From: Escherichia coli
GTDB lineage: Bacteria; Pseudomonadota; Gammaproteobacteria; Enterobacterales; Enterobacteriaceae
NCBI GenBank assembly: GCA_009729775.1
Contig: GCA_009729775.1_4081.1
DNA: 64,000 nucleotides
Strand: one strand, 5' to 3'
Both the position numbers and the translations under genes were made by a program. How positions within the stretch are numbered: position 1 is the first letter of the stretch; each line of letters opens with the position of its first letter. Of the stretch, positions 31,233-41,619 are shown piece by piece. The notes below the pieces were generated by a model that saw only the letters and a program-made list of their open reading frames with translations, was not told the DNA's origin and did not search any database.

Positions 31233-31334
31233 GTGTAGTTCTCCTTATATTCCTTCTATAGTACACCAGTACTGAAAGGATGTCAAGGGTTTTCTTTATG
31301 GGGTAAATATGATATAATGAATAAGGAGGGATTT

Positions 31335-32483
31335 ATGTTACCTTTTGCAAGAATGATGAATTACGGGAATATTGCCCCTGGTGATGATGGACGTTTTAAA
31401 ATATATTCCAGTGATTCCATGTATCTTCATGATACTTATACTGATAAGTTGTATGCATCTTCTGCGACGAATTGGGGTACTGGAACAGGTGTAGCATCGA
31501 GTAAATTTATTCTTTGTGCGGAGAATGTTAAACGAGTTCTATTGGAAGATAACAGTAGTGATTGTCAATTGTACGAAGAGAAAGGTACGGGAAAAGTTTT
31601 TATCACTGGCAACACGAAGGCATTCACTGGTGTAACTGATAGAAAAACTTTGTGGACGGAATGTACTACGTGGATAACATCAGGTGGTATTAATGTTTCT
31701 GATATAAAATACATGAGTAGTTTTAATGATATGAAGGTAAATTTGATAACAAACGATGGTACATTGTATTGTTGTGGAGCTAACAATAACTCTAACCTAT
31801 CATCATTTGGTGATGGTACAAACATTAATTCTTTTAACACATTCAAAAGGGTAGATACTATAACTTCGGTTAAAAAGGCAGTTGGTAACATATACCTAAA
31901 AGAAGATAATACTTTATGGGGTTGTGGTTTTAACTATTACTATCAGTTAGGTACAGGCAATCAAACTTCTATTACTGGGGTGACGATGATTGCTTCGGAT
32001 GTTATAGATTTTGATGTAAGTTATCAGAGTACATTTTTTATTAAATCAGATAATAATTTGTACGCATGTGGTAAACAGTTCGGTGCACAATACGGGAACG
32101 AATTTGGCACAGGTGGTACTTCTTCATCTACAGATATACAATACAAAACTCCAACATTATTGAGTTCAGGAGTTTATACTTTATATACTTGTGTTAGTAA
32201 CATGGCATCTCATATTGTCAAAAAAGATGAAGTTATGTATGCATCTGGTTCGAATGGGTTTGGTCAATTAGGTGTTGGTAATAATATTAATCAGTACTCC
32301 TATACTCCTTCGTATACTTCTTTTAATAGTTCGTGTGATTTGGTACGCAGTCCATCTGGATCACTTATACTTACGGATACTGGAAAATTATATTATTGTG
32401 GCCCTGCAATATTAGTAATGGGGGGAATTGCTGGACAAAACATTCTTAGTTATACAGAAGTAGATATGTCATTTATACAATGA
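31335..32483 (+). CDS. RCC1-like beta-propeller repeat protein, paralog 1 (382 aa)
   Basis: Start at MLPFARM with AAGGAGGG RBS; repeated G-x-N-x-x-GQLG-x-G type motifs. Confidence 0.75.
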   Translation: MLPFARMMNYGNIAPGDDGRFKIYSSDSMYLHDTYTDKLYASSATNWGTGTGVASSKFILCAENVKRVLLEDNSSDCQLYEEKGTGKVFITGNTKAFTGVTDRKTLWTECTTWITSGGINVSDIKYMSSFNDMKVNLITNDGTLYCCGANNNSNLSSFGDGTNINSFNTFKRVDTITSVKKAVGNIYLKEDNTLWGCGFNYYYQLGTGNQTSITGVTMIASDVIDFDVSYQSTFFIKSDNNLYACGKQFGAQYGNEFGTGGTSSSTDIQYKTPTLLSSGVYTLYTCVSNMASHIVKKDEVMYASGSNGFGQLGVGNNINQYSYTPSYTSFNSSCDLVRSPSGSLILTDTGKLYYCGPAILVMGGIAGQNILSYTEVDMSFIQ

Positions 32484-32491
32484 ATTAATAT

Positions 32492-32520
32492 GCCAGTACT
32501 TGATACTGGCTTTTCTTATT
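32492..32520 (+). terminator. rho-independent terminator of RCC1 cassette
   Basis: GCCAGTActtgaTACTGGC hairpin followed by T-run; repeated after every paralog. Confidence 0.7.
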
Positions 32521-32533
32521 GTATTAAATATAG

Positions 32534-32556
32534 TATAATGAATAAAGGAGGGAATT
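32534..32556 (+). promoter_or_regulatory. conserved cassette promoter/RBS (TATTAAATATAGTATAATGAATAAAGGAGG)
   Basis: TATAAT box and AAGGAGG RBS conserved upstream of each RCC1-like gene; promoter class not resolved. Confidence 0.5.
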
Positions 32557-33666
32557 ATGTTACCTTTTGCAAGGATGGTTAAGTACGGAAATATTGTACC
32601 TGGTCCTAAAAATATAATTAAAGTTGGTGCTTCTACACAAGGACAATTCTTATTGACTGATTCACATGATTTATATTACATAGGTAGAAATCAAGGTGGT
32701 GAATCTGGAAATGGTAATACCAACACGGTATCTTCATGGATATTAGTAAGTGCAGATGTTTCTAATTTTTTCGTGGGTGATCGTACACTTGTTATTATTA
32801 AAAATGATAATACGATATGGACATCAGGTCAAACGTACTGGTTCTCATCTTCTACAACTACTTCTTACAGTACTGTATTAGTTGAAAGAACTAATTGGTT
32901 TACCAATGCTATACCAGTAAGTGAAATTGCTAATATTGTATGTACAAATGGTTTAATATTTGTACTTAGCACTAATTCAGTACTCTATGGTGCAGGAGAT
33001 AATGGATATCGTGGTTCTTTGGGTATTGGTTCCTCATCAATTTACACATTAACTCAATGTGCTACGAACGTTCGTAAAGTAATGACCAATGCGAATGATA
33101 GTATGTATCTTACATTAGATAATAAGCTATATAGTTCTGGATGGAATAGTAGTGGGCAGCATGGTACGGGGAACCAAACACAAATTAACACTTGGGGATT
33201 GCGTAGTTCTGGTGTAATCGATGCAGCCATTGGTGGTAATGCATTAAATTACTATAATGGTACATCATATTTCGTATGTGGTCAAACTCCAAACTTTCTT
33301 AGTTCAGGTACGACTACATTCCGTGCAGTTCCTGTAAGTACCTTGCCTAATAGTTCTCCATTGTTTATGACGAATTCACCTGCCTTAAATACTGCTACAC
33401 AAATGGTAATTACTAGTACATATCAGAAGGGTGTTGGGGCGAACCGTGGTTTGGGATTAAACAATTCCCAAACTGGTGCTATATATAGTGCTACCAATTT
33501 ACAATTACCCGTTGAAGTTAGTGAGATTAGGGATGTTCTTTTTAGTGATGGTTTGACATCGTTATTAACCAAAAATGGAGATGTGTATAGTACTGGATCG
33601 TATTACGCCATTCCAGGTGCAATCGAGGATGTTGCAGTCTTTACTAAAATTGATTTACCAAAATAA
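32557..33666 (+). CDS. RCC1-like beta-propeller repeat protein, paralog 2 (369 aa)
   Basis: MLPFARMVKYGNIVP start; SGWNSSGQHGTGN and similar repeats. Confidence 0.75.
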   Translation: MLPFARMVKYGNIVPGPKNIIKVGASTQGQFLLTDSHDLYYIGRNQGGESGNGNTNTVSSWILVSADVSNFFVGDRTLVIIKNDNTIWTSGQTYWFSSSTTTSYSTVLVERTNWFTNAIPVSEIANIVCTNGLIFVLSTNSVLYGAGDNGYRGSLGIGSSSIYTLTQCATNVRKVMTNANDSMYLTLDNKLYSSGWNSSGQHGTGNQTQINTWGLRSSGVIDAAIGGNALNYYNGTSYFVCGQTPNFLSSGTTTFRAVPVSTLPNSSPLFMTNSPALNTATQMVITSTYQKGVGANRGLGLNNSQTGAIYSATNLQLPVEVSEIRDVLFSDGLTSLLTKNGDVYSTGSYYAIPGAIEDVAVFTKIDLPK

Positions 33667-33673
33667 CATAATG

Positions 33674-33704
33674 CCAGTACTTGATACTGGCTTTTATTTT
33701 TTGA
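33674..33704 (+). terminator. rho-independent terminator of RCC1 cassette
   Basis: GCCAGTACTTGATACTGGC plus T-run. Confidence 0.7.
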
Positions 33705-39890: not shown

Positions 39891-39933
39891 AGGCACGAAA
39901 TGTGTTTAGAAAGACACTATTAATTAACATAAT

Positions 39934-39961
39934 GTCAGTACTTGATACTGGCTTTTCTTTT
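39934..39961 (+). terminator. rho-independent terminator of RCC1 cassette
   Basis: GTCAGTACTTGATACTGGC plus T-run. Confidence 0.65.
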
Positions 39962-39997
39962 TGATTAAATATAGTATAATGAATAAAGGAGGATTTT

Positions 39998-41203
39998 ATG
40001 TTACCTTTTCCAAGGATGTTAAAATACGCTAATAAAATGAAAGTTCCTGAAGTGAAAGAAATCTTTATTTACAATGGTTATAGTGCGTCAGTTATTCCAG
40101 CAACAGCACTCTTACTATTATATAAAAATGGAGACTTAATGGGTATAGGTGGAACTAGTTCACAAAACTATGGATTCGGAAATGGTGTACCTAATGCGAA
40201 AGTAAAAGAGTGGGCTTTAATATACCAAAATGTAAAACGTTTTAGAACAGCCCAAGGTTCTTTTAATTTAATCCAAACCGAAGATAATAAATTTTATTAC
40301 AGTGGTGTAGGTAGAGCTATTGGTACAGGATTAAGTACTGTCAGTACTTATACTGATTGTACTTCATATTTTACATCAGTATTCAATGCAACACAATTGT
40401 CCCAAATTAAGGACATTCAAATTGTAGGAGAGGGTATTTTTGTTTTACTTCAAAATGGTACGCTATATGGAATGGGGGCCAATACACAGGGATATTTTGG
40501 TAATAACACAACCACAAGATTATCAACATTTACTTCAATTAATACGAATGTAGATAGTGTGAAAACAGGTTCAAGTGCAGTAATTGTGCAGAAAATTGAT
40601 AAAACACTTTGGGTCACTGGTCAAAACACATGGGGTTCACTTGGTATAAGTAATGGTGAAACTAACATTAGAGTATGGACACAAATGGGTGCATTAGCCA
40701 ACAATACTGTTATACATTATGAACTTGGTGGGAGTGCATCATGGGTTGTATCTAAACACAACACGAATAATACATATACAGTTCGTGCAAGTGGGATTCA
40801 ATCGGAAGGTAACTTGGGTAATAGTTCAGCCGCTTCATCAGGGACAGTATTATCTACAATCTCCACTCTACCAATATCAGATAATATGGAAATGAAATCA
40901 AATTCATTAACATATGGTGGGCTTACGGTTAAAACTAACAATTCACTTTATATGTGTGGTATAAACACATATGGTAGGCTCGGTCGCGGTAATACCACAT
41001 CAAGTACTACATTTGTAGTTCCAGTTGATGCACCTAAAGTTGGCAGCATCGAGTTATTCTGTCCAAGTGAATGTACAAATGTGTATATGGATAATCAAGG
41101 GGATGTTTATTTGAGTGGCTATATCCCACAAGCGACAGGTACAACAGTTTCTGATTATTACACTAAATTTCAATTATATAAAATACCCAGTCGTGGTATA
41201 TAA
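39998..41203 (+). CDS. RCC1-like beta-propeller repeat protein, paralog 8 (401 aa)
   Basis: MLPFPRMLKYAN start; GINTYGRLGRGN repeat. Confidence 0.75.
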   Translation: MLPFPRMLKYANKMKVPEVKEIFIYNGYSASVIPATALLLLYKNGDLMGIGGTSSQNYGFGNGVPNAKVKEWALIYQNVKRFRTAQGSFNLIQTEDNKFYYSGVGRAIGTGLSTVSTYTDCTSYFTSVFNATQLSQIKDIQIVGEGIFVLLQNGTLYGMGANTQGYFGNNTTTRLSTFTSINTNVDSVKTGSSAVIVQKIDKTLWVTGQNTWGSLGISNGETNIRVWTQMGALANNTVIHYELGGSASWVVSKHNTNNTYTVRASGIQSEGNLGNSSAASSGTVLSTISTLPISDNMEMKSNSLTYGGLTVKTNNSLYMCGINTYGRLGRGNTTSSTTFVVPVDAPKVGSIELFCPSECTNVYMDNQGDVYLSGYIPQATGTTVSDYYTKFQLYKIPSRGI

Positions 41204-41209
41204 AATAAA

Positions 41210-41237
41210 GCCAGTATTTTGTACTGGCATTTTTTTG
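41210..41237 (+). terminator. rho-independent terminator of RCC1 cassette
   Basis: GCCAGTAttttGTACTGGC plus T-run. Confidence 0.7.
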
Positions 41238-41274
41238 TCCTAAATATAATAACGATTTACATTTGGAGGATACA

Positions 41275-41619
41275 ATGCTACCCTTTGGTATAATTATCAC
41301 ATCATCAAAAAAGAGCATACAACCTTCTGTAACAAAAATAGCTTCATCTGATACAACAGTTTTTGCCCTTATGTCAGATGGTACGCTGTACAGTAGAGGC
41401 TCTCAAGAGTTTTGGTGAATTGGAATAGGTACACAAACTGATTTAGTAACCTATACCAAATGTGTACTACCAATAGAGATGAATATGAATAACGTATATG
41501 TTACAGCAACTTTATACAGAACTTACTTAACCGATGGTATACAAATTTACAGTACTGGACAATATATTACAGACGGTGGAGTTGCCAGTACTGTATTTGT
41601 CAAAGATTCACCATTTTAG
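41275..41619 (+). pseudogene. remnant of an RCC1-like paralog (N-terminal 47 codons fused out of frame to C-terminal blade)
   Basis: MLPFGIIITSS... stops at 41418; downstream frame encodes ...IYSTGQYITDGGVASTVFVKDSPF matching paralog C-termini; degenerate cassette upstream. Confidence 0.55.

What the first reader, a model, noticed from the sequence alone, without database searches (positions are those of the whole stretch)
31233..41619. Plus-strand array of RCC1-like beta-propeller paralogs, each in an identical terminator-promoter-RBS cassette with a conserved MLPFARM leader
Ten consecutive units (eight intact, one frameshifted, one remnant) each consist of a GCCAGTACTTGATACTGGC terminator hairpin, the element TATTAAATATAGTATAATGAATAAAGGAGG, then a 370-450 aa protein that always starts MLPFARM-x-x-YGN and then diverges into Gly/Thr/Ser/Asn-rich repeats of the RCC1 type (for example YGWGRNVNGELGQGN). 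Conserved 5-prime cassette plus conserved N-terminal peptide followed by hypervariable bodies is the architecture known from hypervariable internal-protein loci of T-even phages, where the conserved N-terminus is a capsid-targeting sequence. I therefore suspect a diversity-generating cassette system delivering varied propeller proteins to a common destination (virion, capsid interior or a secretion route), possibly for host recognition or anti-defence. This is the only plus-strand island in the window.
Basis: partly seen in the sequence, partly recalled or inferred. Interest (0 to 1): 0.9.

Follow-up and report, generated by a model that had tools for sequence, protein, structure and literature searches.

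The report
Tagged propeller-protein array of a jumbo phage
A giant E. coli phage carries a row of very different propeller-shaped proteins that all begin with the same 12-15-residue tag, and this tag marks proteins built into the virus particle, most likely as swappable host-binding heads rather than the "DNA condensation proteins" they are annotated as.

Summary
The window comes from an Asteriusvirus-type E. coli jumbo phage (121Q/PBECO4/phAPEC6/JP4 group). Positions 31,233-41,619 hold nine plus-strand units. Seven are intact, one is frameshifted and one is a deletion remnant. Each has a hairpin terminator, a TAAATAT-RR-TATAAT promoter-like element, an AAGGAGG ribosome-binding site and an ORF starting MLPF-x-RM-x-x-YGN.

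The bodies are 7-bladed RCC1-like propellers that are only 17-23% identical to each other. That these genes are RCC1-like, multi-copy and found in virions by mass spectrometry was already published (phAPEC6, GAP32, CBB).

Four points appear to be new:
- The tag survives across phage genera with synonymous codon changes, and also in units that lack the DNA cassette.
- The tag heads at least four unrelated fold families: RCC1 propellers, Kelch-annotated propellers, Laminin-G-like proteins and a TNF-like/glycine-rich tail-fibre head.
- Carrying the tag predicts virion presence in three phages.
- Seven related phages hold 22 cassette types in shuffled orders.

Best reading: the tag is a short docking peptide that plugs alternative ligand-binding heads into one virion site, probably on the outside. 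A T4-style capsid-interior signal is less likely, because there is no protease site and the proteins are neutral rather than basic. No active diversity-generating mechanism is indicated.

The parts
31304..31318 (+). Promoter-like element of unit 1 (TAAATATGATATAAT). It combines a late-type TAAATA core with TGATATAAT, an extended -10.
31335..32483 (+). Unit 1, cassette type A. Intact 382-aa RCC1-like propeller, leader MLPFARMMNYGN. A same-type cassette (phAPEC6 gp549) was detected in virions.
32492..32551 (+). Junction cassette 1/2: hairpin GCCAGTACTTGATACTGGC plus T-run, then TATTAAATATAGTATAATGAATAAAGGAGG.
32557..33666 (+). Unit 2, type B. Intact, 369 aa, leader MLPFARMVKYGN.
33673..33732 (+). 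Junction cassette 2/3 (hairpin, T-run, promoter-like element, ribosome-binding site).
33737..34924 (+). Unit 3, type M. Intact, 395 aa.
34913..34972 (+). Junction cassette 3/4. The hairpin overlaps the end of unit 3.
34977..36167 (+). Unit 4, type C. Intact, 396 aa.
36175..36234 (+). Junction cassette 4/5. The -10 is weakened to TATAAC.
36240..37419 (+). Unit 5, type G. It is frameshifted: a 59-codon leader ORF (36240-36419), with the propeller body in the +1 frame (36343-37419). The same break is present in PBECO4, slurp01 and SHEFM2K.
37427..37486 (+). Junction cassette 5/6.
37491..38642 (+). Unit 6, type D. Intact, 383 aa. A same-type cassette (phAPEC6 gp005) was detected in virions.
38649..38709 (+). 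Junction cassette 6/7. The hairpin has a 4-nt loop.
38715..39890 (+). Unit 7, type H. Intact, 391 aa, and 99.7% identical to the virion-detected phAPEC6 gp006. This is the AlphaFold2-modelled member.
39904..39922 (+). 19-nt scar resembling the 3' end of unit 6 (38606-38624). It is probably left by a deleted cassette.
39934..39992 (+). Junction cassette 7/8.
39998..41203 (+). Unit 8, type N. Intact, 401 aa, leader variant MLPFPRMLKYAN.
41210..41274 (+). Last junction. The hairpin is intact; the promoter is degenerate (CCTAAATATAATAACG) and the ribosome-binding site is GGAGG.
41275..41619 (+). Unit 9, type F remnant. Leader MLPFGIIITSSKK, an internal deletion of about 790 bp relative to 121Q, and an in-frame TGA. 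Type F is last and broken in every phage compared.

Best explanation
The locus is a repertoire of monocistronic gene cassettes for virion-associated, ligand-binding 'head' proteins. All share a short N-terminal docking tag.

Shown:
- Each unit is a self-contained module. It has a hairpin plus T-run, then a TAAATA core of the kind that precedes this phage group's structural genes, immediately followed by a perfect TATAAT. An AAGGAGG site and an ORF follow.
- Each product has a roughly 15-residue leader (MLPF-x-RM-x-x-YGN-x-x-P), modelled as a free tail. Behind it is a 7-bladed RCC1-like propeller, and the propellers are 17-23% identical to one another.
- The leader is constrained at the protein level. 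It shows synonymous variation, it is kept in units that lack the DNA cassette, and it is conserved in other genera.
- The same leader heads at least four unrelated fold families, encoded in the array or in equivalent same-strand gene clusters of related phages.
- Leader-bearing proteins are found in purified virions of three phages.

Inferred:
- The leader is a linear docking motif that inserts into one common socket on the particle. Different heads would then compete for the same sites.
- The socket is probably external (tail, baseplate or the 'hairs' of these phages). The leader-sharing families are typical binding modules, and one has the receptor-binding fold of the cyanophage Pam3 tail fibre.
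- The heads widen or tune host-surface recognition.
- The roughly 110-bp conserved junction, running from the hairpin to codon 15, provides the homology for unequal recombination. That recombination would produce the gain, loss and reordering of cassettes seen between phages.
For: Cassette anatomy and statistics.

The motif TAAATAT[AG][AG]TATAAT occurs 8 times in the window, only in the array. The minus strand carries 17 perfect TTGACA-N16-18-TATAAT promoters and the plus strand none. phAPEC6 capsid, scaffold, protease and baseplate genes and other structural-region genes are preceded by nATAAATA or TAAATA.

Fold. The RCC1 homology starts at about residue 15-26. In the model, residues 1-14 have pLDDT below 50.

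Bodies are 17-23% identical, while M1 L2 P3 F4 R6 M7 Y10 N12 P15 are invariant.

Protein-level constraint on the leader: Y10 is coded TAC 52 / TAT 23, G11 is GGG 52 / GGA 18, and P15 is CCT 39 / CCA 26 among 83 units. Units with no hairpin or promoter still carry the leader.

Other genera: GAP32 gp001 starts MLPFSRIIQYGN. Serratia phage BF and Yersinia phage fHe-Yen9-04 have MLPFP[IV]..; Xanthomonas phage XaC1 has MFPIPIISKYGN.

Other folds with the same leader: the GAP32_002 / BF gp372 family (PHROG 6011); 121Q_243 (PF21722-family glycine-rich protein); and nine CBB genes annotated as Kelch or Laminin_G_3.

Virion mass spectrometry:
- phAPEC6 gp003, 005, 006, 007, 009, 010, 549 and 551. That is 8 of about 10 annotated array members, against 62 of 551 products overall.
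- CBB_536, 537, 548, 549, 551, 552 and 553, which is 7 of 9 leader-bearers.
- GAP32 gp001.

Shuffling: 22 cassette types in 7 phages, in differing orders. dS between same-type cassettes reaches 0.4-1.2, whereas DNA shared between these phage records in and around the array is roughly 86-98% identical.

Exclusivity: the leader, the hairpin and the promoter variant were found nowhere else in about 337 kb of phAPEC6.
Against: - No experiment locates these proteins on the particle. The mass spectrometry only shows co-purification, at low peptide counts (1-5 peptides, 3-17% coverage).
- The docking role of the leader is inferred. No partner has been identified.
- The low confidence of the leader in AlphaFold2 comes from a 7-sequence alignment.
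- RCC1 propellers are normally monomers, whereas fibre heads such as Pam3 gp24 are trimers. One socket for both is not self-evident.
- The tail-fibre-like cassette (type O) is absent from this window, so its relevance rests on the shared leader and locus.
- The Laminin_G_3 match of the GAP32_002 family is weak here (E 8.6e-4, below the Pfam cut-off).
- Promoter class and timing rest on motif similarity only. The cassette core is TTAAATA, not the commoner ATAAATA.
Confidence: 0.55

Rival explanations
1. T4-internal-protein-like system. The leader is a capsid-targeting sequence that loads the propellers into the prohead core. They are then injected with the DNA and act as anti-defence inhibitors, as T4 IPI* does against GmrSD. 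The bacterial RCC1-like propeller BLIP-II, a tight enzyme inhibitor (from my own knowledge, not checked here), would be a precedent.
For: The architecture matches: diverse proteins share only a short N-terminal peptide, in a locus that differs between close relatives (T4 description in PMC3012670). The proteins are in virions. phAPEC6 has an unassigned inner body, and these phages encode a T4 gp21-like prohead protease.
Against: There is no conserved Glu and no L/I-x-E cleavage motif in residues 1-30 of any window paralog. The proteins are about 40 kDa, with net charge -6 to +7 and 37-42% Gly/Ser/Thr/Asn, unlike small basic internal proteins. The same leader heads a tail-fibre receptor-binding fold, lectin-like Laminin_G_3-annotated proteins and Kelch-annotated propellers. 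Peptide counts in the mass spectrometry are low.
Confidence: 0.18
2. The leader is a recognition tag for an assembly chaperone or for a phage- or host-encoded protease (a degron or quality-control tag). It would control folding or abundance of these proteins rather than anchor them in the particle.
For: It is a short, conserved and apparently unstructured N-terminal peptide on several folds. phAPEC6 encodes ClpP-like and Clp ATPase-like proteins, GroES and a tail-fibre assembly protein. Fibre heads such as Pam3 gp24 need a dedicated chaperone.
Against: This does not explain why leader-bearing proteins are so consistently found in purified virions. No match to known degron classes was tested or seen. 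No chaperone gene is encoded in the array.
Confidence: 0.1
3. The published annotation is correct: these are DNA-condensation or inner-body proteins that order the packaged genome, by analogy with eukaryotic RCC1 binding to chromatin.
For: The RCC1 fold. The phAPEC6 authors proposed this because an inner body is seen and no phiKZ inner-body homologues exist.
Against: The similarity covers only the propeller scaffold. The proteins are near-neutral and poor in charged residues. A structural DNA-ordering role would not predict 22 interchangeable types with gain and loss between near-identical phages. It would also not predict replacement by Kelch or Laminin-G-like proteins carrying the same leader in CBB, which lacks the GAP32 RCC1-like protein.
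Confidence: 0.05
4. The conserved N-terminus has no protein-level function. It hitch-hikes on a DNA cassette (promoter, ribosome-binding site, translation-initiation region) that is homogenised by gene conversion among tandem paralogs.
For: Within Asteriusvirus, codons 2-4 and 6 are almost invariant at the DNA level (TTA 76/83, CCT 76/83, TTT 82/83, AGA 78/83). The conserved DNA block runs continuously from the hairpin to codon 15.
Against: The leader is retained where the cassette is absent (PBECO4 unit 2, slurp01 unit 5, JP4 units 9 and 11, 121Q unit 11). It is also retained in tightly packed operons of other genera, with different codons (P3 is CCA, CCT, CCC or CCG). Synonymous variation with a fixed amino acid is seen at Y10, G11 and P15.
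Confidence: 0.03

Closest known systems
Published RCC1-like 'DNA condensation' genes of Rak2-like jumbo phages (GAP32 gp001; 121Q 234-248; PBECO4; phAPEC6 array)
   Same: These are the same genes. Their RCC1 similarity, multiplicity and detection in virions by mass spectrometry are already reported (PMC5259590, PMC7247149).
   Different: In the papers read here, the shared leader, the terminator-promoter cassette, cassette shuffling and the sharing of the leader with other folds are not described. The proposed function (DNA condensation or inner body) is not supported by the composition or the locus behaviour found here.
T-even internal proteins with a capsid-targeting sequence (IPI, IPII, IPIII)
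   Same: A short conserved N-terminal peptide on otherwise unrelated proteins, a locus that varies between close relatives, and products carried in the virion.
   Different: No protease cleavage motif. The proteins are large, neutral propellers rather than small basic proteins. Each gene has its own terminator and promoter. Sister families point to the tail rather than the capsid interior.
Modular phage receptor-binding proteins with a conserved N-terminal anchor and a variable distal head (Pam3 gp24, S16 gp38 adhesin)
   Different: The anchor here is a peptide of about 15 residues, not a folded domain. Nine to fourteen alternative heads with the same anchor are encoded side by side with the same promoter-like element, and eight of them were detected together in phAPEC6 virions. 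Heads belong to at least four unrelated folds, and RCC1-type propellers are not an established receptor-binding fold.
Adenovirus fibre N-terminal tail motif docking into the penton base (recalled from my own knowledge, not tested here)
   Same: A short conserved linear N-terminal motif anchors fibres whose distal knobs vary in receptor specificity.
   Different: An unrelated virus and sequence, with one or two fibre genes per genome and no cassette array. This is a resemblance of principle only.
Eukaryotic RCC1-like domains (RCC1, UVR8, RPGR, HERC RLDs)
   Same: The 7-bladed propeller fold and the repeat signature.
   Different: About 15-20% identity and no conserved functional surface examined. 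The phage proteins add an N-terminal leader that is absent from the eukaryotic proteins.

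Membership tests
RCC1-like repeat beta-propeller superfamily | RCC1 / RCC1_2 sequence repeats | tested here: met
   All 8 long ORFs hit an RCC1-type family. PF00415 or PF13540 is above its gathering score in 7 of 8. 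Unit 4 has only RCC1_2 at 18.9 bits (cut-off 22) plus WD40_RLD at E 1e-14. WD40_RLD is E 1e-14 to 1e-30 throughout but below its whole-domain cut-off.
RCC1-like repeat beta-propeller superfamily | Seven-bladed propeller fold | tested here: met
   AlphaFold2 model of unit 7 has pTM 0.81. Foldseek gives UVR8, RPGR, RCC1 and HERC at E 1e-19 to 1e-14 with TM about 0.7. A profile search of the PDB agrees.
RCC1 proper (Ran-GEF / chromatin-binding 'chromosome condensation' function) | Basic DNA- or nucleosome-binding character and Ran-binding surface | tested here: not met
   Net charge is -6 to +7 and pI 5.0-9.2. There is no Ran in bacteria. The specific surfaces were not examined.
T4-type capsid-targeting-sequence internal proteins | Short conserved N-terminal peptide shared by otherwise diverse proteins | tested here: met
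T4-type capsid-targeting-sequence internal proteins | Prohead-protease cleavage site (L/I-x-E) ending the targeting peptide (motif recalled from my own knowledge of T4) | tested here: not met
   No conserved Glu anywhere in residues 1-30 of the window paralogs.
T4-type capsid-targeting-sequence internal proteins | Location inside the capsid and injection into the host | not testable with these tools
   Only bulk virion mass spectrometry exists.
T4-type capsid-targeting-sequence internal proteins | Locus hypervariable between close relatives | tested here: met
   22 cassette types in 7 phages, with differing order and number.
Modular virion receptor-binding proteins (constant N-terminal anchor, variable head) | Constant N-terminus with a divergent remainder | tested here: met
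Modular virion receptor-binding proteins (constant N-terminal anchor, variable head) | Component of the virion | tested here: met
   From the literature rather than from computation. phAPEC6 Table 1 lists cassettes of the same types as window units 1, 6 and 7. CBB and GAP32 mass spectrometry agree.
Modular virion receptor-binding proteins (constant N-terminal anchor, variable head) | Attachment to tail or baseplate, and binding of a host surface receptor | not testable with these tools
   Indirect only. The leader-sharing type O cassette has a tail-fibre head fold.
Intrinsic (rho-independent) terminator | GC-rich hairpin followed by a T-run, on the coding strand after the stop codon | tested here: met
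   8 junction hairpins with 7-10 bp stems and TTTTCTTTTT-type tails; 19 sites against 4.1 expected. Loops vary while the stem is kept. Termination activity was not tested.
T4-type late promoter (TATAAATA, gp55-like sigma) | TATAAATA-like box upstream of late or structural genes | tested here: inconclusive
   The cassette has TTAAATA, with the TAAATA core intact. Structural-region genes of phAPEC6 have nATAAATA, CTAAATA or GTAAATA. A late-sigma gene is present. A perfect TATAAT follows directly, so sigma-70-type use cannot be excluded. No transcript data.
Diversity-generating systems (DGR-like or other active hypermutation) | Template/variable repeat pair, reverse transcriptase, or an excess of non-synonymous change | tested here: not met
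   The fetched array annotations list only RCC1-type or hypothetical genes and no reverse transcriptase. dN/dS is 0.05-0.29 between same-type cassettes, except one low-divergence pair at 0.95. Template/variable repeats were not searched for.

The most novel reading that the evidence does not exclude
A natural plug-and-play display system. In Rak2-like jumbo phages, a 12-15-residue N-terminal tag (MLPF-x-R/I-x-x-x-YGN) would be sufficient to dock any of several unrelated binding folds into one socket on the virion surface. The folds are RCC1 propellers, Kelch propellers, Laminin-G-like lectins and TNF-like/glycine-rich fibre heads. The roughly ten co-expressed heads would compete for that socket, giving mosaic particles with combinatorial host-surface recognition. 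A second, unrelated tag (M-L/I-E-L/M-L/M...) does the same job for the same head families in rV5-like phages. This implies a repeated evolutionary solution, and a transferable handle for engineering phage host range.
Probability: 0.35. Interest if true: 0.8.

Novelty: new variant of a known kind. Interest (0 to 1): 0.6.

Why it matters
These genes are annotated as 'regulator of chromosome condensation' or 'DNA condensation protein' in many of the roughly 60 jumbo-phage records that carry them. The evidence here says that name is probably wrong.

If the leader is a docking tag, several things follow:
- It explains in one stroke why 7-8 of the leader-bearing genes in each of phAPEC6 and CBB turn up in virion proteomes.
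- It gives candidates for the unassigned 'hairs' and baseplate decorations of CBB and phAPEC6.
- It defines a sequence rule (MLPF start) that predicts virion proteins in a large, poorly annotated phage group.
- It offers a minimal peptide handle for loading foreign binding domains onto jumbo phages used in therapy.

It also shows how a phage can hold a large, recombining library of alternative binding heads without any dedicated diversification enzyme.

Tried and rejected
- A profile search of the 1.84-billion-protein representative library with the seven paralogs returned 106,669 hits dominated by giant multi-repeat RCC1 proteins. It was useless for tracing the leader.
- A word-indexed homologue search with unit 7 found only 9 close orthologues.
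- The supplement text held for the JP4 virion mass spectrometry contained no 'chromosome condensation' entries and no array locus tags (CDS0216-0230). Nothing can be concluded from this.
- The Sharanji and UE-S1 papers do not mention these genes. Searches for PF21722 and for rV5/RCC1 literature gave nothing relevant.
- Sequence searches of the PDB with the type O protein and with GAP32_002 gave nothing significant. A predicted-structure comparison was needed for type O; GAP32_002 was not modelled.
- I tested whether the genes flanking the array on its right side are homologous between the window and CBB, which would make the loci syntenic. BLASTP found no similarity (E 0.3-0.5), so synteny is not claimed.
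- An apparent extra leader (MLPISRV) in an unannotated 855-codon phAPEC6 ORF was judged a chance internal match. It has no YGN and no ribosome-binding site, and about 0.25 such matches are expected per 100 kb by my own rough estimate.
- The sigma-70 consensus scan is not enriched in the array (57 sites against 58 expected). The cassettes are therefore not ordinary -35/-10 promoters.
- The idea that the leader is the 'velcro' strand closing the propeller was rejected. RCC1 homology and the first modelled strand begin after residue 15-20, and the same leader sits on non-propeller folds.

Full report
**Origin of the window.** Megablast of 31,000-42,000 against phage records matches 37 records, 33 from Escherichia and 4 from Salmonella. 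All the records listed are large phages of about 310-380 kb, such as JP4, SHEFM2K, slurp01, UB, PBECO4 and 121Q. Identity is 86-98%. No record covers more than 49% of the query in one place, so the region is mosaic between close relatives. Taxonomy lines place these phages in Asteriusvirus.

**The observation.**
- The hairpin pattern is found at seven plus-strand sites, against 0 in shuffles. An eighth junction hairpin is at 38649. The 30-mer promoter/ribosome-binding element occurs seven times, against 0 expected.
- A search for the leader finds nine plus-strand ORF starts, at 31335, 32557, 33737, 34977, 36240, 37491, 38715, 39998 and 41275. There are none elsewhere in the 64 kb on either strand.
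- Seven units are intact, at 369-401 aa.
- The unit at 36240 stops after 59 codons, and its propeller body continues in the +1 frame (36343-37419).
- The unit at 41275 is a remnant. Compared with 121Q it has lost about 790 bp internally and has an in-frame TGA.
- A 19-nt scar of another unit's 3' end lies between units 7 and 8.
- Aligning the nine junctions shows one conserved DNA block, running from the hairpin at about -65 to about codon 15. Nothing is conserved 5' of the hairpin.

**The proteins.**
- All eight long ORFs hit Pfam RCC1-type families (RCC1, RCC1_2, WD40_RLD).
- They are only 17-23% identical to each other. M1 L2 P3 F4 R6 M7 Y10 N12 P15 are invariant.
- An AlphaFold2 model of unit 7 (pTM 0.81) is a propeller whose best solved matches are UVR8, the RPGR RCC1-like domain, RCC1 and HERC RCC1-like domains (Foldseek E 1e-19 to 1e-14).
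- Residues 1-14 have pLDDT below 50 and no secondary structure, and the first strand starts at residue 20. A profile search of PDB sequences aligns only from position 15-26 onward.
- The leader is therefore an N-terminal extension and not part of the RCC1 fold. The caveat is that the model's alignment had only seven sequences.
- The proteins are near-neutral (net charge -6 to +7) and contain 37-42% Gly, Ser, Thr and Asn.

**What was already known.**
- The CBB paper (PMC5259590) reports that GAP32 gp001, an RCC1-like protein, is a virion protein by mass spectrometry. It also notes multiple homologues in 121Q and PBECO4.
- The phAPEC6 paper (PMC7247149) counts eleven RCC1-like genes and speculates that they order the packaged DNA.
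- Its Table 1 lists gp003, 005, 006, 007, 009, 010, 549 and 551 among 62 virion proteins, at 1-5 unique peptides each. These are array members.
- Unit 7 of the window is 99.7% identical to gp006. Units 1 and 6 are of the same cassette types as gp549 and gp005.
- RCC1 identity, multiplicity and virion association are therefore published. I found no description of the leader or of the cassette architecture in the papers read.

**The leader is a protein-level feature, separable from the DNA cassette.**
- I found 83 leader-bearing units in seven Asteriusvirus arrays, counting the window.
- Several units have no hairpin or promoter and directly abut the upstream gene. They are PBECO4 unit 2, slurp01 unit 5, JP4 units 9 and 11, and 121Q unit 11. 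All still start MLPFGRM or MLPFTRM.
- Codon tables show synonymous variation under a fixed amino acid at Y10, G11 and P15. Position 5 is a replacement hot spot, with G 36, A 33, V 7, P 3, T 2 and R 2.
- Outside the genus, GAP32 gp001 (single copy) starts MLPFSRIIQYGNIAPAPG with different codons.
- Serratia phage BF and Yersinia phage fHe-Yen9-04 have tightly packed tandem RCC1 genes starting MLPFPIISN.. or MLPFPVIVKYGN. Xanthomonas phage XaC1 has three starting MFPIPIISKYGN.

**The leader is shared by unrelated folds.**
- GAP32_002 and BF gp372 belong to PHROG 6011, 'virion structural protein', and are not RCC1-like. They start MLPFARIFRYGD and MLPFARIVEYGN.
- 121Q_243 is also present in JP4 and phAPEC6, inside the array and with the standard cassette. 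It is a 245-aa glycine-rich protein whose homologues fall in Pfam PF21722, and it starts MLPFGRMVKYGN.
- In CBB, which lacks the GAP32 RCC1-like protein, nine neighbouring genes all start MLPF-x-[RI]-x-x-x-Y-[GA]-N. Three are annotated Kelch-type. Six are annotated virion structural or structural proteins, two of them with Laminin_G_3 matches.
- The CBB virion table lists seven of these nine: CBB_536, 537, 548, 549, 551, 552 and 553.
- The CBB authors name six MS-detected structural proteins whose genes are absent from GAP32, and reason that the tail 'whiskers' should be encoded by such genes. Four of the six are leader-bearers.

**A second tag in another phage lineage.**
- Four tandem RCC1-like paralogs of the rV5-like phage LTH01 all start MLEM[LM]NLG.
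- Many PF21722-family homologues start M[LI]E[LMT][LM].
- The PHROG 6011 member of GAP31 starts MEEMLLTGG, and alignments to the roughly 145-150 kb phages begin only at residue 16-19.
- The same head families thus carry a different, lineage-specific tag.

**Where do the proteins go?**
- The AlphaFold2 model of 121Q_243 (52-sequence alignment, pLDDT 93.4) again leaves the first ~15 residues at low confidence.
[quoted passage not shown] A separate N-terminal helical domain docks to the baseplate (PMC9608196). In the phage protein studied here, the 15-residue leader occupies the place of that docking domain.
- Propellers, lectin-like sandwiches and fibre heads are all binding modules. Together with the neutral, Gly/Ser/Thr/Asn-rich composition, this favours an external docking site.
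- It does not prove one. No structure or labelling experiment exists.

**Regulatory parts.**
- Structural-region genes of phAPEC6 are preceded by nATAAATA or a TAAATA core. Examples are the capsid, scaffold, protease and baseplate wedge genes and gp245. A late sigma gene is present.
- The window's minus strand carries 17 perfect TTGACA-N16-18-TATAAT promoters and the plus strand none. The array is therefore an oppositely oriented island in an early-type region.
- The array's own element, TAAATAT-RR-TATAAT, occurs 8 times in the window and nowhere else. It was also absent from about 337 kb of phAPEC6 outside the array, as were the hairpin and the leader.
- I read the element as a late-type core with an adjoining -10. 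Timing is inferred, not shown.
- In Yersinia phage fHe-Yen9-04 the genes sit only about 10 nt apart, with just a ribosome-binding site between them. A TAAATA core was seen only ahead of the first gene.
- CBB and BF keep TAAATA motifs before several of their leader-bearing genes.
- The per-gene hairpin-plus-promoter junction was seen only in Asteriusvirus.

**Evolution of the locus.** Typing at 55% identity or more gives 22 types. An asterisk marks a broken copy.

| Phage | Cassette order |
|---|---|
| Window | A B M C G* D H N F(remnant) |
| 121Q | A E B E C O A D H* I J F* |
| JP4 | A B M C P O D H S I K N F* |
| PBECO4 | L B E A C G* D M N F* |
| slurp01 | T J Q L B E A C G* D U K F* |
| SHEFM2K | J Q L B E A C G* D I K F* |
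| phAPEC6 | A V E B L P C O D H I J K F* |

- Whole cassettes are gained, lost and moved.
- Type F is always last and always broken. The G frameshift is shared by four phages at 99-100% identity.
- dN/dS between same-type cassettes is 0.05-0.29, with one low-divergence pair at 0.95. This indicates purifying selection, not hypermutation.
- dS reaches 0.4-1.2, although the DNA these phage records share in and around the array is 86-98% identical. The cassettes therefore come from a pool older than the genomes that carry them.
- Recombination across the conserved junction is the obvious mechanism, but it is inferred.

**Verdict.** The feature is real and its basic identity is known. Its organisation and the tag appear to be undescribed. 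The published functional label is poorly supported.

| Reading | Confidence |
|---|---|
| Docking-tag model, as virion targeting only | about 0.8 |
| Docking tag with an external adhesin role (best explanation) | 0.55 |
| T4-like internal cargo | 0.18 |
| Chaperone or degron tag | 0.10 |
| DNA condensation | 0.05 |
| Pure DNA hitch-hiking | 0.03 |

Noticed in passing
window 29978-31232 (minus strand) and further left: A tandem run of paralogous 60-75-aa ORFs lies directly left of the array. JP4 and SHEFM2K annotate about 15-25 such genes there, several of them assigned to PHROG 11711 in SHEFM2K. Function is unknown.
   Followed up: no
window 42304-44061 (minus strand): Five consecutive ORFs of 104-141 aa with hydrophobic, membrane-protein-like sequences, possibly paralogous, lie right of the array. 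CBB also has a run of small 'membrane protein' genes next to its leader-bearing cluster. The larger flanking genes showed no sequence similarity between the two phages.
   Followed up: partly
window minus strand, e.g. 643, 10072, 11261, 13693, 14123, 14319, 14587, 15786, 16825, 17416, 17939, 18536, 25172, 27746, 45983, 50609, 61640: Seventeen perfect TTGACA-N16-18-TATAAT promoters, all on the minus strand. This density marks the surroundings as a host-sigma-70 (early) gene region. Only two late-type nATAAATA boxes occur, at 56414 and 57063 on the minus strand.
   Followed up: partly
window 36240-37419: The +1 frameshift that splits unit 5 is present, with the same 59-codon leader ORF, in PBECO4, slurp01 and SHEFM2K at 99-100% identity. 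It is either a pseudogene spread by recombination or a gene needing frameshifting. There is too little divergence to tell.
   Followed up: partly
codon 5 of every unit (e.g. window 31347-31349, 32569-32571): Leader position 5 is a replacement hot spot flanked by invariant residues (G 36, A 33, V 7, P 3, T 2, R 2 among 83 units). It differs even between otherwise near-identical orthologues.
   Followed up: partly
L007 (phAPEC6 MK817115.1) 2434-3543, 6063-7253, 7325-8059; L008 4179-6536 versus L007 3-2360: The phAPEC6 record leaves two intact leader-bearing genes unannotated, and a third (type O) only partly annotated as gp004. About 2.3 kb of the array is also repeated at both ends of the record. 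If the search database was built from the annotated ORFs (not checked), the published virion proteome could not have detected those products.
   Followed up: partly
L013 (phage LTH01) 2477-7146; L024 (GAP31) 4953-5603; proteins P0163-P0219: rV5-like and related phages (about 141-150 kb among the isolates) carry tandem RCC1-like, glycine-rich and PHROG 6011 proteins. These share a different N-terminal tag (M-L/I-E-L/M-L/M...), paralleling the MLPF tag of the jumbo phages.
   Followed up: partly
L019 (phAPEC6) 9579-12146, minus strand: An open reading frame of at least 855 codons lies in a stretch with almost no annotation, between gp322c and the virion protein gp323c. It is probably a missed or split structural gene.
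   Followed up: no
proteins P0002, P0003, P0008: Orthologues of unit 7 are deposited as 'Escherichia coli' proteins. Two of them (P0002, P0008) sit on contigs of about 350-358 kb, which are almost certainly whole jumbo-phage genomes filed as bacterial assemblies.
   Followed up: no
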